Position numbers and translations under genes: made by a program. From Flavobacteriales bacterium (lineage in GTDB: Bacteria > Bacteroidota > Bacteroidia > Flavobacteriales_F > PHOS-HE28): DNA of 40,750 nt. Of the stretch, positions 1 through 22,038 are shown one piece after another. Location of the stretch: the NCBI GenBank assembly GCA_040383865.1, contig JBEICT010000002.1, forward strand, positions 1 to 40,750, written 5' to 3'. The notes under the pieces are model-generated. The model did not search any database. It saw only the letters and a program-made list of their open reading frames with translations, and was not told the origin of the DNA. The first letter of the stretch is position 1. The number at the start of each line of letters is the position of its first letter.

Positions 1-2611
1 AGGAACTGATGGCAACAACAGCAGTCGTGGTGAACGCAGCGCATCCGCCGGTAGCTGCTACCGTATAGGTCACCGTGTAGTTACCGGCAGTGCTCGAAGA
101 AGGCGTGATCGCGCCCGAGGAAGCATTGATCGAGAGACCAGCAGGGCTTGCCGTGTAGCTACCTCCTGCGGTTCCCGTGCGGTTCACGGACACAACACCG
201 GCCGTGGTGCAGAACGGCGAACCAGCGTAGGCGATGGTCGCGGCCGGTTGAGCAGCGATGGTGACACTTGCGGTCGTGCTGAACGCAGCGCAGCCACCGG
301 CAGCGGCCACCGTGTAAGTCACGGTGTAGGTGCCCGGAGTGCTGGTCGAGGGTGTGATGTTGCCGTTGAAGGTATTCAGCGTAAGACCTGCGGGTGAAGC
401 GCTATAGGAGCCCCCGGTGGTGCCGGTACGTGTAACGCTCACCGCAGCGACCGATACACAGAACGGAGATCCGGCGTATTGGATCGTGGCTGATGCGGCC
501 GTGCCCACGGATACGGTCAAGGACTGCTGCGCACTTCCACAACCGTTGCTCACTACGATCGTGTAGGAACCTGCAGCAGCAGAGGTCGCCGACGCGATGG
601 AAGGGTTCTGTGCGGTGGATGAGAATCCGTTGGGTCCGCTCCAGGCATAGGTCAGTGTCCCGGTCCCGGTGGCCGTAACACCCAGTTGCAGCGGCTGGCC
701 TGCGCACACAGCGCCTGCGCCAGAAACGCTGGAGATGACCGGTGCGGGAATAGGCGTGCCCGCACATTGACAGGCAGCCGTCCACACATCGTTCACCGTG
801 CAGGCATTGTTGTCGTTACAGGCCGTGCCAGGCATCGCGGTACCGCCGTTCACACCAAGGCAGTCCACTGTTGCACCGGCCGTGCTGGCACCAATGGCAC
901 CCAGCGACAGATCGTAGTAGCTACCACTGGCAGTGGTCTCCAGCTTCACGGCACGCACCATGTACTCGCGGCCCGTGATGAACGGGATGGCCGGGTTCAC
1001 ATAACCCGTACCAACAACTGGGGTAGTGGTCAGTCGTGTGATGGAGCCCGTGGTGGCGTCGAACTGATACAGGTGATATCCCGTCACGCTCTCGGCGGAG
1101 GCAGTCCAGCTGAACGATGCCACACCTGAAGCATTGGAGACAACGAGGTTGGCGGGAGGTGCCACCATCCTCATTCGCAGGCTGGGGTCGCCCATGAGCC
1201 CGAGGTGTGAGCGACCGATGCTGCCTTGCCAACCCTCAGTGAGCGGAGTGTAGAGGGCGGAGTTGTTCATGGTGACCAGCACACTGTATCCGATCGGATC
1301 GCCCATGCCCATGTGATGGAAGTACCATGCCGGGATACCCGCCCAGCAGTTGGTGAGCGCCTGGCCACTGGCCAAGGGGGCGCGCAGGAAATTATTTCGG
1401 TTGTCCCAATCACCATAGTAGCTGCCCATGGCCATGTTGAACACACCGCTCATCGAGGTCGTGGCATAGTTCTGCGTAGTACCAACGTTCGCGGCGCCAT
1501 TGAAGGTGAGCACGCCACCATCCACGGCCTGCGTTCCACCACCGGACGAGTAGGTCCAGAGGTAGCTCTGGTTGTTCACCAAGCTGTAGAACGGCGTACC
1601 GTTCTGGTTGGCATTGGTGATGTTGGCGGGTCCCACGAGCGGTGCCATGGAACGCCAGCCGCAGCCCGCGATGGGGTTGCCCACCCACTGCAGGTTATCG
1701 AACACGAGGCCTCGCTGCTGCGGGTTCCATTGCTTCACCTTGAAGTTATGGGCCTTGTTCAGGTAGTTGCGGACCAGCGTCACCTCCGATTGACCAAAGG
1801 CAGGCATATCGAAAAGGTCGACCCGTCCCACCTGTAGCTCCACCGTGCTTGGGAACGTTCCCTGGTCGAACTTGCCATCACCGGGAACATTGCGGTTCTC
1901 CACGCGCTGTGAGGCACTGTTGTTAACCGAAGCATCCGTCCATGTACCATCGATGTCACCGTAGTAGCCATCACAAGGCCATGCACCCGTGTGCTCGCTA
2001 TGGCCATCGGGGGCCACATTACCGGAGTAGGGAACAGGAACGTGACCAACGATGTAGATGGCCTTGACGTTGGTGGGATCACTGTTGTAATGCCCGGCTA
2101 CAATGCTCTTGATGTTGGCAGCGGTGGCCGTGCGGCTCACATCGCTGCGCAGTACGATCCAGCCATCGCTACGCAGATCGGTCATCAACTGTTGAAGTTC
2201 CGCGGTCAATTGGGGTGCAAGCGTATTGTCGACCAGCAGGATCAATTTGCCGCGTTGATCGACCGGGGCCACTTCAATGCCGGTGCTGATATATCCCTGA
2301 CCAGTAACCCCGTTCGAGACACGGACCACGCGGTACTCGTAATTGACACCGACCACCACGCTATTGTCCACGTACTGTGTTGCCGAAGCCGCAGGTGTGG
2401 CGATCGCGCTGCCCCAGGATGTCCCGGTCTTCAGCTTGCGAAAGATGGTGATCGAGGTGGTGCTCGCCATCGTCGGCCATGAAATGGTGATGGAGGCCGG
2501 TGTCGATTGAACGGACGCCGAAAGCTGCACAGCGGCTCTTTGTGACGCGGTCTGGCCGAGAACGGCAAGATGCGCCAACAGGGCGAACAGAACAAGGATG
2601 TTACGTACCAT
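1..2611 (-). CDS. Large secreted adhesin-like protein, N-terminal 870 codons only (C-terminus lies beyond the window start); paralog of the head of the 2807..8161 protein
   Basis: Absent from the ORF track because the frame stays open to the window edge. Hand translation of the minus strand from ATG (plus 2609-2611) gives 870 stop-free codons. It starts with signal peptide MVRNILVLFALLAHLAVLGQTA. Then IYIVGHVPVPYSGNVAPDGHSEH, NVPGDGKFDQ and VGRVDLFDMPAF run colinear with the head of the neighbouring giant protein. These are followed by one DCLGV..CNDNN..C.C unit (about 748-868), a W.GPNGF..QNP Ig-like module and two tandem ~80-aa Ig-like repeats. Confidence 0.85.
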   Translation of the reverse strand, partial: MVRNILVLFALLAHLAVLGQTASQRAAVQLSASVQSTPASITISWPTMASTTSITIFRKLKTGTSWGSAIATPAASATQYVDNSVVVGVNYEYRVVRVSNGVTGQGYISTGIEVAPVDQRGKLILLVDNTLAPQLTAELQQLMTDLRSDGWIVLRSDVSRTATAANIKSIVAGHYNSDPTNVKAIYIVGHVPVPYSGNVAPDGHSEHTGAWPCDGYYGDIDGTWTDASVNNSASQRVENRNVPGDGKFDQGTFPSTVELQVGRVDLFDMPAFGQSEVTLVRNYLNKAHNFKVKQWNPQQRGLVFDNLQWVGNPIAGCGWRSMAPLVGPANITNANQNGTPFYSLVNNQSYLWTYSSGGGTQAVDGGVLTFNGAANVGTTQNYATTSMSGVFNMAMGSYYGDWDNRNNFLRAPLASGQALTNCWAGIPAWYFHHMGMGDPIGYSVLVTMNNSALYTPLTEGWQGSIGRSHLGLMGDPSLRMRMVAPPANLVVSNASGVASFSWTASAESVTGYHLYQFDATTGSITRLTTTPVVGTGYVNPAIPFITGREYMVRAVKLETTASGSYYDLSLGAIGASTAGATVDCLGVNGGTAMPGTACNDNNACTVNDVWTAACQCAGTPIPAPVISSVSGAGAVCAGQPLQLGVTATGTGTLTYAWSGPNGFSSTAQNPSIASATSAAAGSYTIVVSNGCGSAQQSLTVSVGTAASATIQYAGSPFCVSVAAVSVTRTGTTGGSYSASPAGLTLNTFNGNITPSTSTPGTYTVTYTVAAAGGCAAFSTTASVTIAAQPAATIAYAGSPFCTTAGVVSVNRTGTAGGSYTASPAGLSINASSGAITPSSSTAGNYTVTYTVAATGGCAAFTTTAVVAISS
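2..490 (-). repeat. Two tandem ~240-250 bp coding repeats (Ig-like modules A.I.YAGSPFC...GGSY.ASPAGL.....G.ITPS.ST.G.YTVTYTVAA.GGCAAF.TTA)
   Basis: Hand alignment of minus-strand translation: unit 242-490 versus unit 2-241. Most positions are identical at protein level and the DNA is visibly similar (for example 20-100 versus 265-345). Confidence 0.8.
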
Positions 2612-2806
2612 GGCAGATGCGTGTTGGAGGACGATCGCCCTTCCATCGCGCTCCCTGCCTTTCAGCTGGTCCTAACGCAAGGCAGTTGCATTCGGGCCGG
2701 GACCTGCGATGAGCAGGCAGGCCCTTTTACCGCAGGAACAGCCGGAATGGTTACAACTCGGGTATGGCCACCCCATACCAACCCAATACCTCACAAGGAC
2801 CGTCAC

Positions 2807-5800
2807 CTACAAACGGACGACGCTTACGCGCGCGATCGAGCGTCCATCCACATCGATCAACGTGATGGAGTAGGTGCCTTGAGGCAGCCCGGACAGATCG
2901 ATCACCGGTGAATAGGCGCGACGATCGACCAACGCGCCACGTGGATCATGGATGGTGACCATACGAGCTTCCCGGATATCCGGCACCAAGCGCACCACGC
3001 CAGAGGACGGATTGGGAATGGCACGGACCTGCACGTCCAGCGAGCGGTCATGGATGCCCACATCATCGCAGGCGTTACCCACACCATCGTCATCATCATC
3101 CGCTTGGTCGGCATTGAACACCCATGGGCAGTTATCGCATGGGTCGCCCACCCCGTCGACGTCAAAATCACTTTGGGCCGTGTTGGGTACCGAAACGCAG
3201 TTGTCGTTACAGTCCAGCACCTGATCCCCATCCAGATCGGGGTTCGGGGTAATACCCGTTGTACCGCCGGCACATGTTCCACAGTCATCGATGAAGGCCG
3301 CGCCGTTGACAACACCAGCGCAATCCATGGGAAGACCGCTGCAGATGCATGAGCTGTTCCAGGTATCGTTCACGGTGTTCGCATTGCCATCATCGCAAGG
3401 TGTTCCTGGCAGGGCCAGGCCTCCGGGAACGCCTGCACAATCCAAGGGCTCACCAGCGCACTGGCAATTGCCCATCCACAGATCATTGCCAGTGGATGCG
3501 TTCCCATCGTCGCAGGGGGTTCCAGGCAGCGCCTGCCCCCCGGGCACACCTGCACAATCGATCACCTGACCCGCGCACGTGCAGGAGGCTGTCCATTGGT
3601 CGTTGTCGGTGGATGCATTGCTATCGTCACATGGCGTTCCAGGGAGAGCAGTGCCGCCCACGGCTCCGAGGCAGTCAATGGGTACGCCCGCACATACGCA
3701 ATCGGTGGTCCATTGATCATTGCCGGTACCGGGGTCGCCATCATTACATGCCGCACCCGGTAGAGCAGTGCCCCCTGACACACCCAGGCAATCGATCACT
3801 TGGCCCGCACAACCGCAGGTCAGTTCCCACAGGTCGTTCCCGGTCGCTGGATCGCCGTCGTCACAGGGTGTGCCCGGCAATGCTGCACCGCCGGGGACAC
3901 CCAGGCAATCCAAGGGAAGTCCGGCACAAATACAATTCGCCGTCCACTGGTCATTGCCCGTGGCGGCATTGCCGTCATCGCATGGCGCACCGGGCAAGGC
4001 CCCTCCGCCTGGCAGACCGACACAATCGATGGGAAGGCCGCTGCATATGCAATCCGAGCCCCAGGTATCATTCCCGGTGGACGCGTTGCCATCGTCGCAT
4101 GGTGAACCAGGCACTGCAGCACCGCCCGCCGCACCAGCACAATCAAGCGGCAGACCGGCGCAGGTGCAATCAACGCTCCATACATCGTTGCCGGTAGCGC
4201 TATTCCCGTCGTCGCAGGCAGTGCCCGGCAAGGCCGTCCCTCCGATCACACCCAGACAGTCCACGACCTCGCCCGAGCAGGCACAATCACTGCCCCAGAT
4301 ATCGTTCACGGTATTGGAAAGACCATCATCGCACGGTGAACCGGGCAAGGCAGCACCTCCGGGTACACCGATGCAATCTAACGGGAGGCCAACGCAGGTG
4401 CAGTCCGCCTGCCAGGTATCCGCACCGGTGGTGGGATCACCATCATTACAAGGCGAACCAGGCCATGATGCTCCGTCGGGCACACCAGCGCAATCCACAG
4501 GTACGCCGGCACATGCACAATCAACACCCCAACTGTCATTCCCAGTCTGGGGGTCACCATCATCACACGGAGCACCGGGTAATGCGGTTCCACCGGGAAC
4601 ACCGTCACAATCCAAGGGCAGGCCAATGCACGTGCAGGCCGCTGTCCACAGGTCATTTCCGGTCAAGGGGTCGCCATCATCGCAAGGCGTACCCGGCAAG
4701 GCACCGCCGAACTCAACCCCAAGGCAATCGTCATTGGTCGGCACTCCTTCGCAGCTACAATCCGACGTCCACACATCATTCACCGTGAGGGCGAGGCCAT
4801 CATCACAGGATGTGCCCACCAGTGCAGGCCCGCCGGGAATGCCCAGGCAATCCAGCGGGAGACCTGTACAAGAGCAATCCTGTTGGTATGTATCATTCCC
4901 GGTCAATGGGTCATTGTCATCACAGGGGCTTCCCGGCCCGGCCGACCCACCGGGAACTCCCGCACAATCGATCGGCTGGCCTGCACATGTACAATTGATC
5001 GTCCATTGGTCGTTCCCCGTGGTCGCATCGCCGTCATCGCATGGAGTGCCGGGCAACGCACCTCCACCGACCACACCGAGGCAATCCATGGGAGGTGCCG
5101 CATGGGTGATGCACAAACGCGCAGCACGGGCCTGGCTCTGGTCCCAGCTCCAGGCCGAGCGTCGGCCTTCACCCTCAATAAGCACCACCATGGCGTTGCC
5201 TGGCGACCATCCTGGCCTGTTCACCACTTCACCTATGGCGGTGGAAATATCGCTGGTACGTTGTGCCACTCCATTGGCATTGGTCACCGTCCAGGAAGGT
5301 GGCGCCCATGGCACGGACGATGTCGTGGCACGCGACGAAAGGTCGAAAGGCGCAAAGCCGAGGGGTTGCGCATTATCCGAGGCTTGCAACGCGACATTCA
5401 GGGAACTGGGCGATAAGTTCCCCGTACCCCTTGCCGTGAACTGAACATAGGCCTGAAGGATGGGGGCATCACGCGGCACCGCGATGTTACCGAACCGCAG
5501 CGCCACCACCTGGTTGCCTCGCCAGGGCGTCGGCTCACCATCGAACACCAGGTCCAGCGAACCGGTGTTGTTGTAAACGTTGCCGTTCTCCGCTTCCTCT
5601 CCATCGGGGTTGCCGCCCACGGAAGTCAGCGTGTAACAGGTGGAGGCGACCACACAGTCGTTATTACCGCCACAAACTCCGCACAGGTCCACCACGGCCC
5701 CACCGCCCGGAACACCGTTGCAATCAATGGGCAGGCCCACACATTGGCAGGAGTTGTTCCATGTATCGTTGCCTGTGTTCGGATCACCATCATTGCAAGG

Positions 5801-8161
5801 TGCTCCCGGCAATGCCGAACCGAAAGGGGTTCCCTGACAATCGACCGGTGTTCCCGCACATGAGCAATCCAAGCTCCAGGTATCGTTGATGGTAAGCGAG
5901 TTCCCGTCGCTGCATGGTGTGCCAGGCAGTGCTCCTCCACCCGCAACACCAAGGCAGTCAAAAGGGGCACCAACGCATTGGCAGCTGGTGTTCCACGTGT
6001 CGTTGCCCGTGTTGGCATTGCCATCATTGCATGGCGAGCCGGGCACCGCCGCCCCACCCGTAACGCCCAGGCAATCGACCAATTGGCCAGTGCAGGCACA
6101 ATTGGTACCGACCACATCATTGATCGTGTTCGGGTTACCGTCGTTACAGGCCGACCCTGGCTCCGGATTCCCACAACCGCATGCACCTGGTGCGGTCTTG
6201 TTCGGATCCGTTGGGCACCCATCCGCCACGTTGCATACACCATCCCCATCGGAGTCCGGCAAAGGCGTGAACACGCAGGACCCACCCGCACATCCATCCG
6301 AGGTACAAGGGTTGTTATCGTTGCACGGGAGCGGCACACCCACACATTGGCACGAGGCGTTCCACGTATCGTTCACCGTGCAGGCGTTGCCATCGTTGCA
6401 AGCCGTACCGGGTGCTGCCGGGCCGCTTGGTACACCCAGGCAATCCGTGGCCACAGGGGTGATCACGACCTGACCGAAGGCACCCAGGCTGAGATTGAAG
6501 TAACTGCCGCTGTACGAGACCTGTAATTTCAGGGCACGCACCATGTAGCGGACCGTGCCGGAAAGGCCGCTGGTGTTGTCCGTGAAGCTGGTGCCGGTCA
6601 CCGCTGTGCTCGTGCGTCGTTCCCAGGTCTGGGTCGCCGTGTTGAAGCGATAGACATGATAACCGGCCAGTCCTGCCTCAGGTGATGCGGTCCAGGTCAC
6701 CGTTGTGTTCTGGCCTGTAGGACTGGTGGCCTGCACGTTCGTAGCAGGGGCCACCACGTGCATGCGCAACGTGGGATCGCCGAGCAACGAAACGTGGATA
6801 CGACCTGCCTGCGGGTTGGCCGGCTCATAATGGCCGTTGCCATTGTTCTGGGTAAGCCTGGTGGAATAGCCGATGGTCTCCCCCAGCCCCATGTGGTGGA
6901 AGAACCAGTTCGGATAACCCGCCCAGAAATTGGCCAGGATGGTGCCTGAACCCAGGGCGGCACGGAGGAAGTTGTCCTGGAAATCCCAATCGCCGAAATA
7001 GCTACCCAGCAGTACCGTAAAGATGCCGCGTGTATAGGTCGATGCGAATTGCGCTGTGCTGCCGACCCCGTTGGCATTCGTCCACCATCCACCACCACAA
7101 CCGTAACTCCAGAGGTGGCTCTGTGTGGACATGGATGTGAAGTAGTCCCCGGCCAACACATTGTTCGGATGCACCAAAGGGCCGAAACCCCGCCAACCGT
7201 TCTGTGAGAACGCATCGGCCATGCCGGTGAAATTGTCATCGATCACAGCCCTATCCTGTGCGGTGATCTGCTTCACCTTCCACTGATGCAGCTTGGTCAG
7301 GTAATTGGCCGTCAAGGTGGTCTCGTCCTGGCTGAACGCCGGCATGTTGAAGAAATCAACGCGGCCTACCGCCAGTTCCACAGAGCTGGGGATCACCGAC
7401 TGATCGAACTTGCCGTCACCGGGCACATTGTGGTTCCTGGTCCATTGGGCCGTGGCACTGTTCACCGAATTATCGGTCCAGGTCCCGTTCATTTCGCCGT
7501 AGTACACATCGGCCACCCATGCACCGTAGTGCTCACCATGGCCATCGGGAGCCAGGTTGCCCGACATAGGCACGGGAACATGGCCAACGATGAATACCGA
7601 GTTCACCTTGGTGGGGTCGGCGTTGTACGCGTTCACTACCAACGCCTTCACACTGGTCACAGGCGCCGTTCGGCTGACGTCATGACGTATTACGCGCCAA
7701 CCGTCGCCTTCCAGATCGCTTTGCAGCTGCGCCAATTGGGTGGCAAGCGAGGTCGTGAACGTATTGTCCACCAACAGCACCATCTTGCCTCGGTCCTCCA
7801 CCATGTCCACTGCGATCCCGGCGTTCACATAACCTTGACCACTCCCCAGGTTCGAGGTGGTACGCACCACCTTGTACTCATAGGAAGTATTGACGCTGAC
7901 GGAATTGTCCACGAACTGAGCGGCCGTTGAGGTCGCCGTACCGATCGCTGTTCCCCAGCTCGTTCCGCCCTTCAACTTTCTGAAAATGGTGAACCCCGTC
8001 GTGTTGGCGTGCGGTGCCCAATTCAGGGTGATCCGCGCAGGGTTGGACTGCACGGTGGCCCAGAGCTGAACGGACCGGTTCTGGCCCAAGGTCTGTGCCA
8101 TGGCAAATGCCGCCAGCAGCCAGAACAGCAGTGTGGCAATGGGCCTTGAATGTTTAAGCAT
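2807..8161 (-). CDS. Giant secreted cysteine-rich repeat protein with T9SS (Por) C-terminal sorting domain
   Basis: The track ORF 2807..8167 starts at TTG; the first ATG (plus 8159-8161) gives signal peptide MLKHSRPIATLLFWLLAAFAMAQ. The head (about 6446-8161) is FN3-like + ~450-aa globular domain + FN3-like. Two blocks of DC.GV.GG.A.PG..CDDG...T.ND.W...C.C.G repeats follow. Asp-rich TSP3-like motifs sit at about 3041-3325 (DLDGDQVLDCNDNC, DVDGVGDPCDNC, DDDDDGVGNACD). The C-terminus IPNPSSGVVRL...IDLSGLPQGTYSITL...VSVVRL (about 2810-3040) fits the T9SS sorting-domain pattern. Confidence 0.9.
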   Translation of the reverse strand: MLKHSRPIATLLFWLLAAFAMAQTLGQNRSVQLWATVQSNPARITLNWAPHANTTGFTIFRKLKGGTSWGTAIGTATSTAAQFVDNSVSVNTSYEYKVVRTTSNLGSGQGYVNAGIAVDMVEDRGKMVLLVDNTFTTSLATQLAQLQSDLEGDGWRVIRHDVSRTAPVTSVKALVVNAYNADPTKVNSVFIVGHVPVPMSGNLAPDGHGEHYGAWVADVYYGEMNGTWTDNSVNSATAQWTRNHNVPGDGKFDQSVIPSSVELAVGRVDFFNMPAFSQDETTLTANYLTKLHQWKVKQITAQDRAVIDDNFTGMADAFSQNGWRGFGPLVHPNNVLAGDYFTSMSTQSHLWSYGCGGGWWTNANGVGSTAQFASTYTRGIFTVLLGSYFGDWDFQDNFLRAALGSGTILANFWAGYPNWFFHHMGLGETIGYSTRLTQNNGNGHYEPANPQAGRIHVSLLGDPTLRMHVVAPATNVQATSPTGQNTTVTWTASPEAGLAGYHVYRFNTATQTWERRTSTAVTGTSFTDNTSGLSGTVRYMVRALKLQVSYSGSYFNLSLGAFGQVVITPVATDCLGVPSGPAAPGTACNDGNACTVNDTWNASCQCVGVPLPCNDNNPCTSDGCAGGSCVFTPLPDSDGDGVCNVADGCPTDPNKTAPGACGCGNPEPGSACNDGNPNTINDVVGTNCACTGQLVDCLGVTGGAAVPGSPCNDGNANTGNDTWNTSCQCVGAPFDCLGVAGGGALPGTPCSDGNSLTINDTWSLDCSCAGTPVDCQGTPFGSALPGAPCNDGDPNTGNDTWNNSCQCVGLPIDCNGVPGGGAVVDLCGVCGGNNDCVVASTCYTLTSVGGNPDGEEAENGNVYNNTGSLDLVFDGEPTPWRGNQVVALRFGNIAVPRDAPILQAYVQFTARGTGNLSPSSLNVALQASDNAQPLGFAPFDLSSRATTSSVPWAPPSWTVTNANGVAQRTSDISTAIGEVVNRPGWSPGNAMVVLIEGEGRRSAWSWDQSQARAARLCITHAAPPMDCLGVVGGGALPGTPCDDGDATTGNDQWTINCTCAGQPIDCAGVPGGSAGPGSPCDDNDPLTGNDTYQQDCSCTGLPLDCLGIPGGPALVGTSCDDGLALTVNDVWTSDCSCEGVPTNDDCLGVEFGGALPGTPCDDGDPLTGNDLWTAACTCIGLPLDCDGVPGGTALPGAPCDDGDPQTGNDSWGVDCACAGVPVDCAGVPDGASWPGSPCNDGDPTTGADTWQADCTCVGLPLDCIGVPGGAALPGSPCDDGLSNTVNDIWGSDCACSGEVVDCLGVIGGTALPGTACDDGNSATGNDVWSVDCTCAGLPLDCAGAAGGAAVPGSPCDDGNASTGNDTWGSDCICSGLPIDCVGLPGGGALPGAPCDDGNAATGNDQWTANCICAGLPLDCLGVPGGAALPGTPCDDGDPATGNDLWELTCGCAGQVIDCLGVSGGTALPGAACNDGDPGTGNDQWTTDCVCAGVPIDCLGAVGGTALPGTPCDDSNASTDNDQWTASCTCAGQVIDCAGVPGGQALPGTPCDDGNASTGNDLWMGNCQCAGEPLDCAGVPGGLALPGTPCDDGNANTVNDTWNSSCICSGLPMDCAGVVNGAAFIDDCGTCAGGTTGITPNPDLDGDQVLDCNDNCVSVPNTAQSDFDVDGVGDPCDNCPWVFNADQADDDDDGVGNACDDVGIHDRSLDVQVRAIPNPSSGVVRLVPDIREARMVTIHDPRGALVDRRAYSPVIDLSGLPQGTYSITLIDVDGRSIARVSVVRL
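3326..5086 (-). repeat. 15 consecutive in-frame 117-bp units (39-aa four-Cys repeat; one unit is 41 aa)
   Basis: Counted by hand from the translation: 14 x 39 aa + 1 x 41 aa = 587 aa = 1761 nt, which matches the coordinates exactly. Cys sits at unit positions 2, 16, 32 and 34 throughout. Confidence 0.9.
5636..6445 (-). repeat. First block of the same four-Cys repeat (4 full units, an 83-aa variant segment, and a terminal DC.GV.GG.AVVD.CGVCGG variant)
   Basis: Hand count: 40 + 83 + 39 + 39 + 39 + 30 aa = 270 aa = 810 nt. The first unit starts at the GAT codon (plus 6443-6445). Confidence 0.8.
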
Positions 8162-8175
8162 GTGCAAAAGGATCG

Positions 8176-8183
8176 CAAATATA
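8176..8183 (-). promoter_or_regulatory. Candidate Bacteroidota-type -7 promoter box TATATTTG for the giant adhesin gene
   Basis: The minus strand reads GGGGGGGGGTTATATTTGCGATCCTTTTGCACATG. TATATTTG fits the TAnnTTTG consensus and ends 14 nt before the ATG. No convincing -33 TTTG was seen. Confidence 0.4.
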
Positions 8184-8184
8184 A

Positions 8185-8193
8185 CCCCCCCCC
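8185..8193. repeat. C9 (G9 on minus strand) homopolymer, running into the 12-nt palindrome CCCGCGCGCGGG (8191-8202)
   Basis: Read directly: ataa ccccccccc gcgcgcggg. It lies immediately upstream (minus-strand sense) of the candidate -7 box. Confidence 0.9.
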
Positions 8194-8453
8194 GCGCGCG
8201 GGAGACCGACCTGCTGGAACATGGGACGGCGACAGATCGTTCGATAAGAGCGACGTATTACCATTCATGATCGACCACCCTTTCTACGTGGTTACCTTCG
8301 CAACGGTTCCGATGAAGCAAACCTTCGACCGGACGATGGCGTAGAAATGGCGGTTGAATAGCCCGGAGCGTGTACGCACCCTCTCAGTTCCCGACCCGGA
8401 AAAGGTTGAAGAACAGGGATTTGGCTTTATGACCTGATCGACTAAAAAAGGAC

Positions 8454-11400
8454 ATGAACAAGGATCGGATGGGATCGATGAACCTATTGGAGCTGATCGC
8501 AGCTTCTTTCAAGCACAGACCTACCGCAACGGCCATTATCTCCGAGGAAAAAGTCCTCACTTATGCCAGGCTCCATGAACACATGGACCGGATGGCCAGC
8601 GTCTTGGCCAAGCATCTGGTGTCGTCCGGTAGTACGGTCGGTCTCTGCCTTGACCGCTCTCCCGAGCTCATCATTGCCGTGCTAGGCATTGTGAAGACCG
8701 GCTCTGCCTATGTGCCCATCGACCCCACGTACCCAGCCGAACGCATCGCAGGGATGCTAGAGGACGCCAAGCCGCCGGTGGTCATCACCAACAAGGTGAA
8801 CCAACACCTCTTCAATGGCACGCAGGCCAAAGTGATCCTCATCGAAGACATTGACCTGGACAACGGTCCGAACTTCGAAGGCGCCTGCCCCGCCACGGCG
8901 GAGGAGCTGCTCTACGTGCTCTTCACCAGCGGCAGCACCGGCCGACCCAAGGGCGTGGCCATGCACCATGCGCCGCTCACCAACCTGATCCAGTGGCAGC
9001 TGCGCACCAGCGTGTGCCGAGAGGCAGATCGCACGCTCCAATTCGCGCCCATCAGCTTCGATGTGAGCTTCCAGGAGATCTTCACCACGTTCGCCCAGGG
9101 CGGCACGCTGGTATTGATCACCGATGAGGACCGCCTGAACAGCACCCAGCTCCTGCGGAAGATCATTGCCCAGAAGATCAACCGGATCATCGTGCCCTTC
9201 GTGGCGCTGCAATACCTCGCGGAAGCGGTGGAGCGCACCGGCGAAGTGCCGTCCACGCTGAAGGAGGTCTTCACCAGCGGCGAGCAGCTGAAGATCACAC
9301 CTGCCATCGCAAACCTCTTTAAGCAACTCCCCGGCTGCCGCTTCTGCAACCAGTACGGACCCACCGAAGGGCACGTGGTGAGCGAGCTCGAGTTGAAAGG
9401 CGATCCGAGCACGTGGCCTGCCTTGCCCAACATCGGAAGCGCCATCGATCACGTGAAGCTTTACGTGCTCGATGAGCAAATGAAGCCGGTGCCGCAAGGT
9501 GAAGAAGGCGAACTCTACCTCGGTGGTGCCTGCGTGGCCAAGGGCTACATCGGTCGTGACGACCTCACTGCCGAGCGTTTCCTCGTGGATCCGTTCATTC
9601 CCGGTGGTCGGCTGTACAAGACCGGCGACCGCGCCGCGGAATTGTCCAACGGCGAGATCGACTACAAGGGCCGCATCGATGGCCAGGTGAAAGTGCGCGG
9701 ATACCGGATCGAGCTGGGCGAAGTGGAAGTGGCCATGGAGAAGCATCCCGCGGTGGAGCAAGCCGTGGCCAACGTGCGCGAAGACCGTCCAGGATTGAAG
9801 CGCCTGATCGGCTACTACGTCGCGAAAAGCGAACTGAGCACCAACGAGCTGCGCAAGCACCTCGCCTCCCTCCTGCCCGACTACATGCAGCCTTCCGCCT
9901 TTGTGGCCGTGAAGGAACTACCGCGCACGCCGAGCGGCAAGATCGATCGCAAGGCACTGCCTGCGCCGGATGTGAAACGACCAGACCTGGATGTGGCCTA
10001 CGCCGCTCCTTCGACCGGCGCTCAAAAGACCCTCGCCAATGTGTGGGCCGATCTGCTCGGCATCGACCGTGTGGGCATCGACGACAACTTCTTCGATCTA
10101 GGGGGCAACTCGCTACTGAGCATCCAAGCAGTGGCACAGTTGGAAGGCCACGGCCTGAAGCTGCCGATCGTGAAGCTCTATCAGCACCCGACCGTACGCG
10201 CTTGTGCCGCATACCTGGAAGGAGATGCAGGCGCCATCGCTCCATCGGAAATGGCCAAGGCTCGCAAGACCGCCACAGGTGGTTCCAAAAAGGGTGACGT
10301 CGCCATCATCGGCATGAGCGGTCGTTTCCCGGGTGCGGAGAATGTGGAGCAGCTGTGGAAGAACCTGCTCGACAAAAAGAACAGCATCAGCACATGGACC
10401 GCGGACGAGCTCGACCCGAGCATCCCTGCGGAGCTGCGCAACGACCCCGACTATGTGAAGGCCCGCGGTGTGATCACCGATGCGGACAAGTTCGACCATG
10501 CCTTCTTCGGCGTGAACCCGAAAGTGGCCGCGTTGATGGATCCGCAGCAACGCGTGTTCCTGGAAACGGCCTGGGCCGCCTTGGAGGATGCCGCGTACGA
10601 TCCCGCACAGTTCGCTGGGCTCATCGGTGTCTATGCCGGCATGGGCAACAACACCTACTTCACACGCAACGTCATCGGTCATCCTGAGCTGATCGAGCAG
10701 GTCGGCGACTTCGCGGTGATGACCGCCAACGAGAAGGACTACATCGCCACACGCCTCGCCTTCGAGTTCGACCTTCGTGGTCCGGCGTTAAGCATCCATA
10801 CCGCGTGCAGTACCTCGTTGGTGGCGATCGCACAAGCGTTCAAGGCGCTGTGCGATGGGGAATGCGACATGGCGCTGGCCGGTGGCATCGCGCTCACCGT
10901 TCCCTTCAACAGCGGCATCGTGTACAACGAAGGTGGCATGTACAGCCCCGACGGCAGCACGCGCACCTTCGACGCCAATGGTAAAGGCACGAGCTTCAGC
11001 GATGGTACAGGCATCATCGTACTGAAACGTCTCGAAGATGCCATCCGTGACAACGACCAGATCTACGCCACCATCAAAGGCGCCGCGCTGAACAACGACG
11101 GCAGCGACAAAGCGAGCTTCACCGCACCCAGCGTGCGTGGCCAGGCGGAGGTGATCGCCATGGCACAGGCCGATGCGGGTGTGAGCCCGAACGAGATCAC
11201 CTACGTGGAGACGCACGGCACCGCCACCCCGCTCGGTGATCCGATCGAGGTGGAGGCACTGACGCTCGCCTTCGGCGGCAAGACCAATGGCCACCACTGC
11301 GTGATCGGCTCCATCAAGAGCAACATCGGACACTTGACCCCGGCCGCTGGTGCAGCGGGAGTGATCAAGACCGCGCTCGCCCTTCGGGAGGAAGTGATCC

Positions 11401-14400
11401 CTTCCAACGTTGGTTTCGAAACGCCGAACCCGGCCATCGACTTCGCCAATTCACCTTTCCGCGTGGCGAACGAGAACATCGCTTGGCCGCGCACCGGAAC
11501 TCCGCGCATCGCAGGCGTTTCCTCCTTCGGTGTGGGCGGAACGAACGCGCATGTGATCCTCGGGGAGCCGCCAGTGGCCAAGGCTTCGAGCGCTTCACGT
11601 AGCAAACAGCTCTTCCTGCTCAGCGCGAAGAGCAAGACGAGCCTCGATGCCATGACGGACAACCTCCGCAACTGGCTCGCAACGCATCCGAAGTCGTCCC
11701 TTGCCGATGCGGCCTACACGCTGCAAGTCGGACGTCGACACTTCAAGCACCGCCGATTGATCGTGGGTGGAAGTCATGGCGAGATGATGGAAGCCATCGC
11801 CAACAAGGACGCCGCAGCGATCGGTACACGCGAGCTGCATGAGGCCGCACCTGGGGTGGTGTTCATGTTCCCCGGACAAGGTTCGCAGTACGTGAACATG
11901 GGTCGGGATCTCTGCGAGTGCGAACCCGTCTTCAAGCAACACTTCGATCAGTGCTGTGACCTGTTCAGCAAGGAATTCGGGACTTCACTGCGCGACATCA
12001 TCTTCCCGAAAGCAGGTGAAGAAGAGAAGGCCGCCGAACAACTGAAACAGACCATCTACACACAGGCCTCCTTGTTCACGATGCACTACAGCCTCGCCAA
12101 GCTGTGGATGCATTGGGGCATCACGCCGGACGCGATGATGGGCCACAGCATCGGTGAGTTCGCTGCCGCCTGCCTCGCCGGTGTGTTCTCCCTGGAGGAC
12201 GCCGTGAAACTGGTGGCCAACCGCGGCCGCATGATGCAGGACCTGCCCGGCGGCAGCATGCTCAGCGTGCGCGCGGCGGAAGCGGATGTGGTCAAGAAGT
12301 TGCCCGCCGGATGCAGCATCGCCGCGAACAACGGTCCGCAATTGTGCGTGGCCAGCGGTCCGCACGAGGCGATCGCGAAGCTGCAGGCCGAGTTGGAGAA
12401 GGACGGCATCACCTGCAAGCTGTTGGTGACCAGCCACGCCTTCCACAGCCCCATGATGGACGCCATCGTGGAGCCCTATCGCAAGTTGGTGGAAAGCGTG
12501 AAGCTGAGCGCGCCGCGCATCCCCATCGTGAGCACGGTGACCGCCGAATGGCTGAAGGACGACGAGGCCACTTCGCCGAAGTATTGGAGCGATCACCTGC
12601 GAGCCACCGTGCGTTTCGCGCAGGCCGTGAAATTCGCGTGGAGCGATGCTGACCGCGTGATGCTGGAAGTTGGTCCGCGTACCACCGCTACAACGCTGGC
12701 CCGCCAGCAGAGCACGGACAACAAGAAACAAGCAGCGGTGCCCTCGTTGGGCGATTCCGCAGGAAACGGCAATGAGCTGACGCAACTGCTGAAAGCCGTT
12801 GGTGGCCTGTGGCAGACCGGCGTGCTCATCGACTGGAGCAAGTTCTACGAGGCAGAGACGCGTCATCGCATCTCATTGCCCACTTACGCGTTCGAGCGCA
12901 TCCGTCACTGGGTGGATCCCGTGGCGATGGTGGCCGATGGTGGTCGAGCCGTGGCCAGCACAACGATCGAGGCCCCCGTACCGAACAGCGGCGATGCCCT
13001 TCTCACCCCCAAGGAAGCCCTCGTCGCGCAGATCAAGCAGCTGCTGGAAGAGAGCTCCGGTCTGGAACTGGCTGAGGTGAGCAATGAGGAGACCTTCCTG
13101 GAAATGGGCCTCGACTCGCTGTTCCTGACGCAGGTCGCGACCTCGCTCAGCAAGAAGTTCGGCGTGAAGATCTCGTTCCGTCAATTGAACGAAGAGCTGC
13201 CCAACCTGGACAAGCTGGCGGACCATATCCTGCCGCATTGGACCAACGCAGGGGCTGTTGCAAGTTCAGGCGCCAAGAGCGACACGGCTGCTGCATCCGC
13301 ACCTGCGATCAATGCCCTCGAGGACGCCCCGGAGCTCAAAAAGGTCTTCGGCGCCCAGGCACGGATCGTGAAGGAGAAGGTGGACGACATGACGCCGCAG
13401 CAACGTGCGTGGTTCGACGCCTTTTTAAAGCGCTACGTGGCCAAGACCGCCAAGAGCAAGGCCTTCACGCAGGAGAACCGCAAGCCAATGGCCGATCCGC
13501 GCGTGGTCACCGGTTTCAAGCCGCAAACGAAGGAACTCATCTACCAGGTCGTGGTGGACAAGAGCAGCGGTTGCCACCTGTGGGACATCGACGGCAACGA
13601 GTACGTGGACATCCTCAGCGGCTTCGGCAGCTCGATGTTCGGCTACATGCCCGATTTCATCAAGGAAGCCTGCCACAAGCAGATCGATACCAGCGTGGAG
13701 ATCGGACCGATGCACCCGCTCGCCGCTGAAGTGTCAAAGCTCTTGTGCGAACTCACCGGTGCCGAACGCGCTGCGGTCTGCAACACGGGGTCTGAGGCAG
13801 TTCTCGGCGCTATGCGGATGGCCCGCACGGTCACCGGCCGTAGCCTGATCATTTCCTTCAGTGGAAGCTACCACGGCATCAACGACGAGGTGATCATCCG
13901 CGGCAGCAAGAGCAAGAAAAGCTACCCTGGCGCGCCCGGCATCATGCCCGAGGCCGTGCAGAACATGCTGGTGCTCGACTACGGTACACCGGAAAGTCTC
14001 GAGATCATCAAGCAACGTTGCCATGAGGCCGCAGCGATCCTGGTGGAACCAGTGCAAAGCCGCCGCATGGAGTTCCGTCCGGTGGACTTCCTCCGCGAGG
14101 TGCGCCGCATCACGCAGGAGAACGGTACCGCGCTGATCTTCGATGAGGTGATCACCGGCTTCCGCACGCACCCCAACGGCACGCAGGCGCTCTTCGGCAT
14201 CCAGGCCGACATCGGCACCTATGGCAAGGTGATCGGTGGCGGCATGCCCGTAGGCGCCATGATCGGCAAGAGCGAATGGATGGACGCCCTCGACGGCGGC
14301 CACTGGCAGTACGGCGACGACAGCGTGCCGCCTGCCGGTGTCACCTACTTTGCCGGCACCTTCGTGCGACACCCGCTGACGCTGGCCGCCATGAAGGCCG

Positions 14401-14927: not shown

Positions 14928-14936
14928 GCGAGCAGC

Positions 14937-17900: not shown

Positions 17901-18902
17901 CGCAGTGCCCACATGCGCGCCCAGTATGTTGCTCCGCGCAACACCGAGGAGGTCGGACTTGCCGAGATCTGGTCCAAGGCGCTCGGCGTGGCTGAGGTCG
18001 GCATCCATGATGATTTCTTCGACCTTGGCGGTCATTCCATCATGGGCATCCAGATGCTCGCCCACATCGAGCAGCGCTTCGAGAAGGCCCTGCCGTTGAA
18101 AGCCCTCTTCGAAGCACCCACCATCGCGCAGTTCGCTGCGTTGCTTCGTGGCGACACCACGGACAGGAATTGGAAGAACCTTTCGGCCATTCGGCCAGCA
18201 GGTTCGGGCATCCCCCTGTTCTGCGTACATGGCGATGAGGCCAGCCACTCCCTGCCCAAGTACCTCGACCCCGACACCCCGTTCTATGCCTTCTTCCACC
18301 AAGGTGAGGATGGCAAGGAGATCCGCTATACGTCCGTGGAATCGATCGCGAAGCACTTCATCTCTGAACTGAAGCAAGCACGGCCAGCGGGGCCTTACCT
18401 GCTCTGCGGATATTCGTTCGGTGGCATTGTGGCCTACGAAATGGCGCAGCAGCTTATCGCCATGGGCGACGAGGTGCCATTGGTGGTGGTTTTCGACACC
18501 TACGCACCGGCCATGCACGGCAAAGCGATCGAAAGCGACCTGAAGTTCTACGACCCACTGAAGAAGCGCATCATGCGTGGCCTGGTATCGCAGTATTTGC
18601 GCAATGGCGGCACGGTGCCCACACGTCTGCGGAACTTCCACATCATCGACACCTACGACCGAGCCGCGATGGCTTATGCTCCGAAGCCCTTCAAAGGCCG
18701 GTTGGCCGTGTTCAAGGCCGAACATTCGTGGGGGCCGAACGAGATGGGTTGGAACGAACTGGCCGCGAACGATGTCGATATACATGTGCTTCCCGGCGAC
18801 CACTACACCATGATCGAAGAGCCGCAGGTACAGGCCCTGGCCCGCGAACTTTCGGAATGCATCCGGAGCACCGTGGGGAAGGCTGAAACGGTTCACCACT
18901 GA
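14937..18902 (+). CDS. NRPS termination module, C-A-T-TE
   Basis: C: GHHVVCDGWS (His codon 15408). A: AAYIMYTSGSTGRPKGV, FDASTFE, NIYGPTE, GRADDQVKVRGFRIELGEIE, PNGKVDKKLL. T: FFDLGGHSIM (Ser codon 18036). TE: LFCVHGDE, GYSFGG (Ser codon 18414), LPGDHY. Starts 9 nt after the upstream stop. Confidence 0.93.
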   Translation: MEKFIQEPRFVAVDFNPFIGPAIERTIPTTEAQREVLTASEMGVDASCAYNESVSLELKGALDQTALERAMHELVKRHEALRSTLNASGTRMLVTDEVRFHLPVIDLSTHNEVELSKQLDAIARKDMTTPFDLRHGPLFRAQLIKIASDAHLLRLCGHHVVCDGWSLGIMMAEISALYNASKSGGMPKLPEASTFSEYSVATIDFAKSPDHAVVERYWLDLYKGPLPRLDLPTDRPRPKQKTYKGNRLDLQLTQDLVRGLKEVATRSGASFVTTLMTTFEVLLHKLTGDSDIVVGLPAAGQSDLGMKHLVGHCVNLLALRSRIDEEQSFIEHLKARRTGVLDAFDNQKYTFGTLLRKLNVPREPGRIPLCPVVFNIDMNMDDGVGFDGLQHRFISNPRAFENFELFLNATGNEGHLTLEWSYNTDLFEEATVRGWMDQLIALIQRVIAHPNAPIVELIGDGPLGAEKVSVPTEWQGKAVTYPKSKGVNTLFDEVVAQYPDRTALVQRDQQLTYAQLQERVLALTALLKENGVKPGDLVALCSERNFRLVEAQLAILRAGAAFVPIDHTYPAERIHLLFEDTRAELLLTEKALEKVLPPHGARVILLDGNEIPKSRLADHVPIEGPETAAYIMYTSGSTGRPKGVVVPHRGIVRLVRDQNYAPFGPDAVITQLSNVSFDASTFELWGALLNGGRLVLQPQSKPTLAEVTETIERYGVNIMFITTGLFNVLVDEHVDRLKGLKCILTGGEVMSLPHIRKALSVLGPGVLNNIYGPTENTTFSCFHPINSAEDIGKQVPIGKPINNTFLYVLDEQRKPVPVGAKGELYCGGDGVALGYWERPDLNEERFLHDPFRGGDARMYRSGDLVKWLPNGTLEFLGRADDQVKVRGFRIELGEIENAISAFTGVRDRLVMVRRDMPGDQQLVAYVVPEGFDPTTDPAQSEHFLDGVRQHLASALPAFMMPSFFVALSSFPLNPNGKVDKKLLPKPELRSAHMRAQYVAPRNTEEVGLAEIWSKALGVAEVGIHDDFFDLGGHSIMGIQMLAHIEQRFEKALPLKALFEAPTIAQFAALLRGDTTDRNWKNLSAIRPAGSGIPLFCVHGDEASHSLPKYLDPDTPFYAFFHQGEDGKEIRYTSVESIAKHFISELKQARPAGPYLLCGYSFGGIVAYEMAQQLIAMGDEVPLVVVFDTYAPAMHGKAIESDLKFYDPLKKRIMRGLVSQYLRNGGTVPTRLRNFHIIDTYDRAAMAYAPKPFKGRLAVFKAEHSWGPNEMGWNELAANDVDIHVLPGDHYTMIEEPQVQALARELSECIRSTVGKAETVHH

Positions 18903-21958: not shown

Positions 21959-22030
21959 GGATGGGAGCAGGGATCGGGGAACGGACGAGCGGAAGCAGGC
22001 AACGCCCTGATGAAGGGGTGAAATTACTCT

Positions 22031-22038
22031 TACTTTTG
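22031..22038 (+). promoter_or_regulatory. Candidate -7 box TACTTTTG
   Basis: Fits TAnnTTTG and ends 34 nt before ATG 22073. Confidence 0.35.

What the first reader, a model, noticed from the sequence alone, without database searches (positions are those of the whole stretch)
3326..6445. T9SS cargo built from about 19 copies of a 39-aa four-cysteine repeat
Seen: 15 uninterrupted units lie in 3326-5086, and 4 full units plus partial or variant units lie in 5636-6445. The consensus is DC.GV.GG.A.PG..C(D/N)DG...T.ND.W...C.C.G, with Cys fixed at unit positions 2, 16, 32 and 34. That is about 80 Cys in the stalk, which implies two disulfides per unit. Each block ends in a variant DC.GV..G.A..D.CG.C.GG unit. 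The stalk is followed by TSP3-like Asp-rich motifs and a T9SS sorting domain. Inference: this would be a rigid disulfide-stapled stalk that displays the N-terminal head on the cell surface. The CDDGN core is distantly reminiscent of Myxococcus-type cysteine-rich repeats, but I cannot place the unit in a named family. The 117-bp period also makes the locus prone to copy-number change and assembly collapse.
Basis: partly seen in the sequence, partly recalled or inferred. Interest (0 to 1): 0.7.

Follow-up and report, generated by a model that had tools for sequence, protein, structure and literature searches.

The report
Cysteine-rich repeat stalk in T9SS protein
A secreted protein of an uncultured Flavobacteriales bacterium carries 19 copies of an uncatalogued 39-residue, four-cysteine module that most likely forms a stiff spacer between a gingipain-like head and its secretion tag; this is a new sequence family but a familiar design.

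Summary
The minus-strand gene 2807-8161 (1784 aa) holds 19 in-register 39-aa units (1+3 and 15) with 12 invariant columns, including Cys 2/16/32/34. Each block ends in a CGxCxGG cap, followed by TSP3 repeats and a T9SS type-A sorting domain.

No Pfam or NCBIfam model covers the unit, yet a unit profile finds 2,462 protein clusters. The sampled ones are largely T9SS cargo with unrelated heads.

AlphaFold (pLDDT about 95) and an independent coupling analysis both show a beta-hairpin preceded by a loop, and a fixed interface between neighbouring units. The same head occurs in hundreds of genomes with no units. Orthologs differ by whole units (0-26 copies). This supports a spacer or stalk role, as proposed for the Cys-rich stalk of Myxococcus TraA.

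- The array is interrupted by a carbohydrate-binding-module-like domain.
- The head has a gingipain fold but lacks the canonical Cys-His dyad.
- At DNA level the units are only 61% identical (longest shared word 15 nt), so assembly collapse is not a concern here.

Disulfide pairing, rigidity and surface attachment remain inferred.

The parts
2807..8161 (-). Whole gene (1784 aa from ATG 8161; the mechanical ORF starts at TTG 8167; stop codon at 2807-2809)
   Evidence: length and N-terminus match homolog P0001
8093..8161 (-). Signal peptide MLKHSRPIATLLFWLLAAFAMAQ
   Evidence: read from the sequence; the same feature is in the homologs
7808..8092 (-). N-terminal Fn3-like domain of the head (aa 26-120)
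   Evidence: AF2 model, pLDDT 92; Foldseek Fn3 matches, prob 1.0
6740..7807 (-). Gingipain (Peptidase_C25)-fold domain (aa 121-476), without the canonical Cys-His dyad
   Evidence: Foldseek top hit RgpB 1cvr, E 3e-12; Pfam PF01364 23.6 bits against cut-off 23; dyad test
6446..6739 (-). Beta-sandwich (Ig/Fn3-like) domain that closes the head (aa 477-574)
   Evidence: AF2 all-beta segment; Fn3 matches
6329..6445 (-). Unit 1 (aa 575-613), with an extra Cys at unit position 22
6260..6328 (-). Dicty_CTDC-like Cys repeat (aa 614-636)
   Evidence: Pfam PF00526, E 6e-4 in the whole protein; 27.1 bits against cut-off 27 when scanned as a 69-aa piece
6077..6259 (-). TSP3-like DSDGDG motif followed by a half unit (aa 637-697)
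   Evidence: sequence; the same variant unit is repeated in homologs such as P0104
5726..6076 (-). Units 2-4 (aa 698-814)
5636..5725 (-). Cap 1: DCNGVPGGGAVVDLCGVCGGNNDC...C844 (aa 815-844)
   Evidence: conserved in orthologs
5087..5635 (-). Inserted jelly-roll domain resembling carbohydrate-binding modules (aa 845-1027); the flanking Cys844 and Cys1019 are invariant
   Evidence: AF2 pLDDT 92; Foldseek 8wab chondroitin-sulfate CBM E 4e-6, 7vbo alginate CBM; invariant Cys
3326..5086 (-). Units 5-19 (aa 1028-1614), 15 contiguous units
   Evidence: first three units of this block (aa 1028-1145) modelled at pLDDT about 93-96
3245..3325 (-). Cap 2: DCAGVVNGAAFIDDCGTCAGGTTG (aa 1615-1641)
3062..3244 (-). 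Thrombospondin type 3 (calcium-binding) repeats (aa 1642-1702)
   Evidence: PDB sequence match to COMP and TSP-2, E 1e-18; Pfam TSP_3 21 bits
2810..3016 (-). T9SS type-A C-terminal sorting domain (aa 1718-1786)
   Evidence: below threshold here; many homologs carry precomputed PF18962 hits; PNPxxG and GxY motifs and the terminal VVRL are visible
2..2611 (-). Tandem paralog, truncated by the window edge: same head (Ser at the Cys357 position), one unit, then Ig-like repeats
   Evidence: the tandem pair is conserved in related genomes

Best explanation
The 39-residue unit is an uncurated, disulfide-rich beta-hairpin module. In tandem it builds an extended, fairly stiff spacer in cargo proteins of the Bacteroidota type IX secretion system. 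In this protein the Sec signal peptide takes the chain to the periplasm. There the four invariant Cys of each unit are expected to oxidise into two disulfides that tie the irregular N-terminal loop (positions 1-22) to the hairpin (positions 23-28 and 34-39). The open end of each hairpin (positions 24/37/39) packs against loop positions 6-7 of the next unit, so the 15-unit and 1+3-unit blocks behave as rods rather than beads on a string. The folded protein is then exported through the T9SS by its C-terminal type-A sorting domain. It is either anchored to the outer membrane or released. The array, the TSP3 calcium-binding repeats and an inserted carbohydrate-binding-module-like domain hold the N-terminal head (Fn3 + gingipain-fold domain + beta-sandwich) at a distance from the sorting domain and the cell surface. 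Copy number sets that distance. Shown here: the repeat, its conservation, the predicted hairpin, the inter-unit coupling, the distribution and the whole-unit copy-number changes. Inferred: disulfide formation and pairing, stiffness, surface anchoring, and what the head and mid-domain bind or cut.
For: Anatomy: 19 units with 12 invariant columns made of structural residue types (Cys, Gly, Asp, Thr), with Ala10, Pro12, Asn25 and Trp28 at least 90% conserved, while the other positions vary freely. Selection acts on the protein: codon positions 1/2/3 are 0.69/0.76/0.39 identical between units, against 0.28 expected from composition. Structure: AF2 of aa 776-1145 gives pLDDT 92 overall and 93-96 across unit boundaries, with one hairpin per unit. 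A direct-coupling analysis of 1,531 consecutive unit pairs, independent of AF2, recovers the hairpin (24-39, z about 9), an inter-unit interface (24/39/37 with 6/7 of the next unit, z 2.7-5.6) and packing of position 10 on Trp28 of the same unit. Spacer logic: the head family is found at 586 or more loci in species-representative genomes. In the 80 best loci, arrays of several units occur only in the closest relatives, mostly Flavobacteriales MAGs (with a few other Bacteroidota labels), while more distant loci, mostly about 660-760 aa, have none. Homologs with the same head carry 0-26 units. Orthologs differ by exact multiples of 39 aa: -117 in L002, +117 in P0014, +78 and +39 in P0003. Modularity: the unit profile hits 2,462 clusters at 50% identity (1,312 at E<=1e-10). 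Of 50 sampled, 28 have Por_Secre_tail, and the other domains include GEVED, PKD, HYR, DUF5122 and reprolysin. Two giants have CHU_C type-B sorting domains next to PorP/SprF genes. Precedent: Myxococcus TraA has a recognition head, a Cys-rich region with more than 70 Cys and at least 8 beta-hairpins described as a likely presentation stalk, and a sorting tag (PMC12045341; PMC6372800).
Against: Nothing here demonstrates disulfides, stiffness or surface attachment. The conserved acidic and polar residues (D18, T23, N25, D26) could form a ligand- or calcium-binding site, which would make the units more than passive spacers. The array is interrupted by a CBM-like domain, so part of it may serve to position that domain rather than the head. 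In unrelated proteins the arrays lie mid-protein (median midpoint 0.52 of length; last unit a median of about 220 aa from the C-terminus), not always directly before the sorting domain. The sorting domain of this particular protein scores below the curated cut-offs.
Confidence: 0.62

Rival explanations
1. The units are themselves multivalent binding modules, for example calcium-dependent binding to a polysaccharide, mineral or another cell surface. The protein would then be an adhesin whose avidity scales with copy number, not a head on a passive stalk.
For: Invariant or near-invariant D18, T23, N25, D26 and W28 are not obviously all structural. The units sit next to calcium-binding TSP3 repeats and around a CBM-like domain. 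They also occur in giant SprB-like proteins with HYR domains.
Against: About half of the unit positions vary freely, and the invariant columns are mainly Cys, Gly and Asp, which suggests a scaffold. The strongest couplings are intra-hairpin and unit-to-unit, as expected for a self-packing rod. The units are attached to many unrelated heads, which fits a generic spacer better than a specific ligand binder.
Confidence: 0.2
2. The unit is a degenerate EGF-like module in a different phase (starting near position 10 and ending at Cys2 of the next unit). The disulfides would then link neighbouring units as the first reader phased them, and the order EGF-like array then TSP3 repeats would mirror thrombospondin and COMP.
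For: The Cys spacing C16-x5-(C22)-x9-C32-x-C34-x7-C2' fits the EGF C2..C6 pattern. The predicted hairpin lies where the EGF major hairpin lies. Many profile hits cover only positions 10-38. A 6-Cys variant exists in homologs.
Against: No EGF-family Pfam model hits re-phased units at E<=10. A re-phased profile finds no EGF protein in the PDB, only a chance-level LRRNT motif at E 0.57. Coupling analysis ties loop position 10 to Trp28 of its own unit and places the next unit's loop at the open end of the hairpin, far from Cys32/34 at the tip.
Confidence: 0.1
3. The array, or its copy number, is an assembly artefact.
For: It is a tandem repeat with a 117-bp period. Relatives such as P0028 and P0093 do contain near-identical duplicated units.
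Against: Unit DNA identity is 49-74%, the longest shared exact word is 15 nt, and TRF finds nothing. The same 19-unit architecture is seen in P0001 (93% identity, 53 member sequences on 5 contigs) and in P0002 (76% identity), both 1784 aa. Units are positionally orthologous in 18 of 19 cases with P0001.
Confidence: 0.02

Closest known systems
Cysteine-rich repeat stalk of Myxococcus xanthus TraA
   Same: The same design logic: signal peptide, N-terminal functional head, long Cys-rich region built of beta-hairpins (more than 70 Cys) described as a likely presentation stalk, and a C-terminal sorting tag (PMC12045341, PMC6372800).
   Different: Different phylum and a different sorting system (MYXO-CTERM rather than a T9SS sorting domain). 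The head is PA14-like rather than gingipain-fold. It is a different repeat family: no NCBIfam (which from my own knowledge includes the TIGRFAM Myxococcus repeat model) or Pfam model matches the unit.
Dictyostelium CTDC repeat (Pfam PF00526)
   Same: The C.D.N.CT.D.C core resembles the second half of the unit. One true copy lies at aa 615-635 in this protein.
   Different: The 39-aa units do not match the model. They lack the central Cys (position 22 is Cys in a minority of units), have Trp28 and the C-x-C-x-G end, and carry a DCxGVxGGxA first half.
Gingipain RgpB and other T9SS cargo with a Peptidase_C25 domain
   Same: The head has the gingipain fold (Foldseek E 3e-12), just reaches the PF01364 threshold, is followed by a beta-sandwich domain, and the protein ends in a type-A sorting domain.
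   Different: RgpB Cys244 aligns with an invariant Ser389 and His211 with Gly359. The only nearby Cys (357) is Cys in 44, Ser in 20 and Gly in 1 of 65 relatives. Gingipains have no Cys-rich repeat array.
Thrombospondin/COMP type 3 repeats, and bacterial TSP3 repeats
   Same: Aa 1642-1702 align with COMP and TSP-2 type 3 repeats (E 1e-18). Small disulfide-rich modules precede them, as EGF-like repeats do in thrombospondins.
   Different: The 39-aa units are not TSP3 repeats and not detectably EGF-like by sequence. There is no thrombospondin C-terminal domain.

Membership tests
T9SS type-A cargo (Por_Secre_tail, PF18962 / TIGR04183) | C-terminal sorting domain of about 70-80 aa that matches the model above its curated threshold | tested here: inconclusive
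   This protein scores 17.9 bits against 27 and 15.6 against 23. Many homologs carry precomputed PF18962 hits, and the motifs PNPxxG, GxY and the terminal VVRL are visible.
T9SS type-A cargo (Por_Secre_tail, PF18962 / TIGR04183) | N-terminal Sec signal peptide | tested here: met
   MLKHSRPIATLLFWLLAAFAMAQ, read directly from the sequence and conserved in homologs. No dedicated predictor was run.
T9SS type-A cargo (Por_Secre_tail, PF18962 / TIGR04183) | Host encodes a T9SS, and secretion depends on the sorting domain | not testable with these tools
   Named relatives are Flavobacteriales/Bacteroidota MAGs. No T9SS component gene was identified among the window ORFs that were scanned.
Peptidase family C25 (gingipain) | Gingipain/caspase-like fold and a match to PF01364 | tested here: met
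   Foldseek 1cvr E 3e-12, prob 1.0. PF01364 23.6 bits against cut-off 23 for this head; 7 of the 11 head sequences scanned (this one included) match, best E 6e-9.
Peptidase family C25 (gingipain) | Catalytic His-Cys dyad (RgpB His211 / Cys244) | tested here: not met
   The RgpB sequence was verified against 4ief_B. A collinear but low-confidence hhalign alignment (E 0.03) puts Cys244 on the invariant Ser389 and His211 on Gly359. A pairwise alignment agrees within 2 residues. Position 357 is Cys in 44, Ser in 20 and Gly in 1 of 65.
Myxococcus cysteine-rich repeat (TIGR02232 / DUF4215) | Match of the unit to the family model | tested here: not met
   No hit for the whole protein at E<=1. No hit for one unit, three units or the cap at E<=10 in NCBIfam, nor for the re-phased unit, three-unit piece or cap in Pfam.
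Dicty_CTDC (PF00526) | Match of the unit to the family model | tested here: not met
   Only aa 615-635, which is not one of the 39-aa units, matches: E 6e-4 and 27.1 bits against 27. A single unit and a 3-unit piece give no hit at E<=10.
EGF-like domain superfamily | Match to EGF-family models or to solved EGF structures | tested here: not met
   No Pfam EGF hit at E<=10. A PDB profile search finds only an LRRNT motif at E 0.57. A fold-level comparison of a single unit was not possible.
Thrombospondin type 3 repeat | Asp-rich calcium-binding repeat with paired Cys, matching TSP3 models or structures | tested here: met
   Aa 1642-1702 match COMP 3fby at E 1e-18, with residue-level alignment over two or three repeats. 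Pfam TSP_3 scores 21 bits against 25.
Carbohydrate-binding module (mid-domain aa 845-1027) | Beta-jelly-roll fold similar to characterised CBMs; glycan binding | tested here: inconclusive
   The fold matches 8wab (E 4e-6, TM 0.64 normalised by the target) and 7vbo. There is no sequence-family hit, and binding cannot be tested here.

The most novel reading that the evidence does not exclude
The 39-aa unit defines a large, so far uncatalogued domain family, seen here mainly in T9SS cargo. It would be a disulfide- and possibly calcium-stabilised rod element whose copy number tunes how far enzymes and binding modules reach from the Bacteroidota cell surface. In this protein it would present a gingipain-fold head that has replaced the Cys-His dyad (invariant Ser at the Cys position, Cys/Ser two residues before the His position) and therefore has a different, unknown activity.
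Probability: 0.25. Interest if true: 0.55.

Novelty: new variant of a known kind. Interest (0 to 1): 0.38.

Why it matters
The unit appears in at least 2,462 protein clusters and has no curated family. Large parts of many giant Bacteroidota surface proteins, common in activated-sludge and freshwater metagenomes, are therefore currently annotated as nothing. Defining it as a domain would improve annotation of T9SS cargo. It would also give a natural ruler for how far surface enzymes are held from the cell. It could offer a compact, disulfide-stapled rod of tunable length for protein engineering. The head is separately interesting: it is a widespread gingipain-fold family (586 or more loci) that lacks the canonical catalytic dyad.

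Tried and rejected
- Tandem Repeats Finder on 1-10000 found nothing, because the repeat is too diverged at DNA level.
- Whole-protein Pfam and NCBIfam scans gave no model on the units. Permissive scans (E<=10) of single units, three units, caps and re-phased units gave nothing meaningful.
- The EGF-like re-phasing hypothesis is not supported by Pfam or PDB profile searches and is disfavoured by the coupling analysis.
- Foldseek with the repeat-plus-mid-domain model returned only matches to the mid-domain, so the unit is too small to be placed by fold.
- Disulfide pairing could not be read. Model coordinates are not exposed. Natural Cys-loss variants were uninformative, because the C32-less cases come from a distinct subfamily (mostly P0149) with Cys at position 28.
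- hhalign of the head against RgpB aligned only subdomain A at default settings, and the global mode failed. A subdomain-B-only local alignment worked, but with low confidence.
- A PDB sequence search with the head profile found nothing.
- Literature searches for a description of this repeat or of the 8wab CBM family found no direct match.
- No intrinsic terminator or sigma-70-type promoter lies between the two tandem paralogs. Bacteroidota promoters are not covered by that scan.
- There is no higher-order periodicity among the 15 units.
Full report
**1. What is there**

The finding lies in one minus-strand gene. The mechanical ORF is 2807..8167. The probable start is the ATG at 8161, which gives 1784 aa, the same length and N-terminus as the 93%-identical homolog P0001.

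A regular expression for the proposed consensus finds 19 units. One is at aa 575-613, three are at aa 698-814, and fifteen are contiguous at aa 1028-1614.

Aligned in register, 12 of 39 columns are invariant: D1, C2, G4, G8, G13, C16, D18, T23, D26, C32, C34 and G36. Four more (A10, P12, N25, W28) are at least 90% conserved. Both blocks end in a DCxGVxxGxAxxDxCGxCxGG cap.

After the second cap come TSP3 repeats at aa 1642-1702, which match COMP and thrombospondin-2 at E 1e-18. The C-terminal segment at aa 1718-1778 resembles the T9SS type-A sorting domain. It scores below threshold here, whereas many homologs carry precomputed PF18962 hits.

**2. The repeat is a protein repeat, not a DNA repeat**

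Tandem Repeats Finder reports nothing. Unit DNA identity averages 61% (range 49-74%), and the longest exact word shared by any two units is 15 nt.

Between units, codon positions 1, 2 and 3 are 0.69, 0.76 and 0.39 identical, against 0.28 expected from base composition. Even in codons for identical residues the third position is only 0.41 identical. The copies are therefore old and kept alike by selection on the protein.

No unit in this protein has a twin above 77% aa identity. Assembly collapse is not a realistic concern for this locus. The same 19-unit layout is seen in P0001 (93% identity; 53 member sequences on 5 contigs) and in P0002 (76% identity), both 1784 aa. Units are positionally orthologous with P0001 in 18 of 19 cases.

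**3. No named family, but a large one**

Pfam-A and NCBIfam give nothing on the units for the whole protein. They also give nothing for isolated units, three-unit pieces, caps or re-phased units at E<=10. The only curated Cys-repeat signal is Dicty_CTDC at aa 615-635, which is not one of the 39-aa units.

An exhaustive HMMER search with the 19-unit profile against 1.84 billion representative proteins finds 2,462 clusters at E<=1e-3 and 1,312 at E<=1e-10. Many hits match only profile positions about 10-38, so the second two-thirds of the unit also circulates on its own.

Of 50 diverse hit proteins, 28 carry Por_Secre_tail. Others carry GEVED, PKD, HYR, DUF5122 propeller, reprolysin or TSP3 domains. 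A half-unit protein has a Peptidase_M43 domain, and another has a CHU_C type-B sorting domain. Two giants (3438 and 4654 aa) are SprB-like, with CHU_C and adjacent PorP/SprF and OmpA-family genes. The hits that carry a name are all Flavobacteriales MAG proteins.

**4. Structure of the unit**

AlphaFold2 on aa 776-1145 (last unit of block 1, cap, mid-domain, first three units of block 2; 56-sequence alignment) gives mean pLDDT 92.3, with 93-96 across the units and their boundaries. Each unit shows an irregular N-terminal part and one beta-hairpin at unit positions 23-28 and 34-39.

As an independent check, I ran mean-field direct-coupling analysis on 1,531 distinct consecutive full-unit pairs (effective number 1,229) taken from all retrieved proteins:
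- The strongest coupling is 24-39 in both copies (z about 9), which is the hairpin.
- Next come inter-unit couplings: position 24 with position 7 of the next unit (z 5.6), 39 with next 6 (4.1), 24 with next 6 (3.5), and 37 with next 6/7 (2.7-2.8).
- Within a unit, position 10 couples with Trp28 (z 4.6 and 2.6) and position 3 with 10.

Neighbouring units therefore share a defined, co-evolving interface, and the N-terminal loop packs on its own hairpin. This supports a rod rather than beads on a string, and it favours disulfides within a unit (C2 and C16 with C32 and C34). The exact pairing remains unknown. Coordinates are not exposed, and natural Cys-loss variants were uninformative.

**5. Why a spacer**

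The constant element of the family is the head, not the array. A scan of species-representative genomes found 586 or more loci that encode the head. Among the 80 best loci, arrays of several units occur only in the closest relatives. These are mostly Flavobacteriales MAGs, with a few carrying other Bacteroidota labels. The more distant loci are labelled Saprospiraceae, Chitinophagales, Sphingobacteriaceae, Planctomycetota, Thermoanaerobaculia or Verrucomicrobiota. They encode shorter proteins, mostly about 660-760 aa, with no units.

Among 120 close homologs the unit count runs from 0 to 26. Orthologs differ by exact multiples of 39 aa: L002 lacks 117 aa, P0014 has 117 more, and P0003 has 78 and 39 more. 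Some relatives (P0028, P0093, P0104, P0040) hold 90-100% identical neighbouring units, which indicates recent tandem duplication. So the family does change copy number over evolutionary time, although this locus shows no recent event.

A generic, length-variable, self-packing module placed between a functional head and a sorting domain, and shared by many unrelated heads, is what a spacer looks like. The published parallel is Myxococcus TraA. Its Cys-rich region (more than 70 Cys, at least 8 beta-hairpins) is described as a likely presentation stalk between a PA14-like head and a MYXO-CTERM tag (PMC12045341; PMC6372800).

**6.

(a) *The array is interrupted.* Aa 845-1027 fold as a jelly roll (pLDDT above 90). 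The best structural matches are a chondroitin-sulfate-binding CBM (8wab, E 4e-6, TM 0.64 normalised by the target) and an alginate-binding CBM (7vbo). The domain is present in 0, 1 or 2 copies among homologs. The flanking Cys844 and Cys1019 are invariant and may close the insertion with a disulfide; that is an inference.

(b) *The head is Fn3-like + gingipain fold + beta-sandwich.* The AF2 model has pLDDT 92 and pTM 0.93. Foldseek's top hit is RgpB (1cvr) at E 3e-12. Scanned alone, the domain just passes Pfam Peptidase_C25 (23.6 bits against 23).

The catalytic dyad is not there. I verified RgpB's sequence against 4ief_B. A collinear subdomain-B alignment then places Cys244 on the invariant Ser389 and His211 on Gly359 (low confidence, E 0.03, but anchored by the shared Y-x-G-x-G, IF-x-V, GD[FW] and GDP[ST]L motifs). 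A plain pairwise alignment agrees within two residues. The only Cys in the head, Cys357, is Cys in 44, Ser in 20 and Gly in 1 of 65 relatives. The protein should therefore not be filed as a gingipain-type cysteine peptidase, and its activity is unknown.

(c) *The next gene downstream is a tandem paralog.* It starts at 2611, lies on the minus strand and runs off the window. It has the Ser variant of the head, one unit and then Ig-like repeats. A divergent NRPS/PKS gene followed by two unit-bearing genes is conserved in six related MAG loci with head-segment identity between 70% and 97%. In five of these the second gene also shows the head motif. The truncated contig L001 (98%) shows only the NRPS gene and the first gene.

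**7. Rivals**

- *Binding-module reading (units as multivalent, perhaps calcium-dependent adhesive elements).* It is not excluded. The conserved D18/T23/N25/D26 could be a metal or ligand site. I give it 0.2.
- *EGF-like re-phasing.* It was attractive because of the Cys spacing, but it failed sequence tests and fits the coupling data poorly. I give it 0.1.
- *Assembly artefact.* Effectively excluded.

**8. Verdict**

This is an uncurated but widespread disulfide-rich repeat family that serves, most likely, as a length-variable stalk in T9SS cargo. It is a new sequence family realising a known design, so interest is moderate.

Open points are the disulfide map, the mechanics of the rod, a possible calcium site, the ligand of the CBM-like insert, and what a gingipain fold without its dyad does.

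Noticed in passing
window 2-2611 (minus strand): Tandem paralog of the studied gene, truncated by the window edge. It has the same Fn3 + gingipain-fold head but Ser at the Cys357 position (WTYSSGGG), a single 4-Cys unit (E 2e-21 against the unit profile), then Ig-like/PKD-like repeats. It resembles P0093.
   Followed up: partly
window 6740-7807 (minus strand), aa 121-476: The head has a gingipain fold but no canonical catalytic dyad. RgpB Cys244 aligns with an invariant Ser389 and His211 with Gly359. Cys357 is Cys in 44, Ser in 20 and Gly in 1 of 65 relatives. D208-G-H210 is invariant and H213 is nearly invariant (64 of 65).
   Followed up: partly
window 8454-18899 (plus strand): A divergently transcribed hybrid NRPS-PKS-aminotransferase gene (2157 aa) is followed by an NRPS C-A-T-TE gene. 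An NRPS-like gene sits next to the head gene in all seven related MAG loci examined (L001-L005, L008, L010), and six of them also show a second unit-bearing gene downstream.
   Followed up: partly
window 3349-5444 (plus strand): Long antisense ORFs (for example 3720..5444, 574 aa, Pro/Ser/Gly-rich and itself periodic) overlap the repeat array. They look like shadow ORFs of a GC-rich repeat rather than genes; no evidence for them was sought.
   Followed up: no
window 8161-8167: The mechanical ORF starts at TTG 8167, but the ATG two codons downstream (8161) matches the length and N-terminus of homolog P0001 and is the likelier start.
   Followed up: partly
loci L020, L022, L047, L053, L057, L059 (labelled Planctomycetota) and L045, L051, L064 (labelled Thermoanaerobaculia): Head-family proteins in MAGs labelled as non-Bacteroidota have no units. 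They end in their own conserved C-terminal motifs (TSNG[VIL]xS[FIV][VI]xx[FY] in most of the Planctomycetota-labelled ones; [VL]DV[IV][VM]DV[ND]GWFE in the Thermoanaerobaculia-labelled ones), which may be different sorting or anchoring signals.
   Followed up: no
homolog P0098 (1777 aa): One relative carries three tandem copies of the whole head followed by a T9SS sorting domain, with no Cys-rich units at all.
   Followed up: no
homologs P0028, P0093, P0104, P0040: These relatives contain 90-100% identical neighbouring units, in places as multi-unit super-repeats. This indicates recent tandem duplication, so in those genomes copy number could be mis-assembled.
   Followed up: partly
window 20531-22213 (-), 24591-26141 (+), 28026-29855 (+), 32755-34056 (+), 39029-40270 (+): Other genes in the window: a RecD/PIF1-like helicase, a 517-aa protein with a C-terminal thioredoxin/TlpA-like domain, an ABC exporter, tRNA-guanine transglycosylase and a TauE-family exporter. 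No link to the finding was seen.
   Followed up: no
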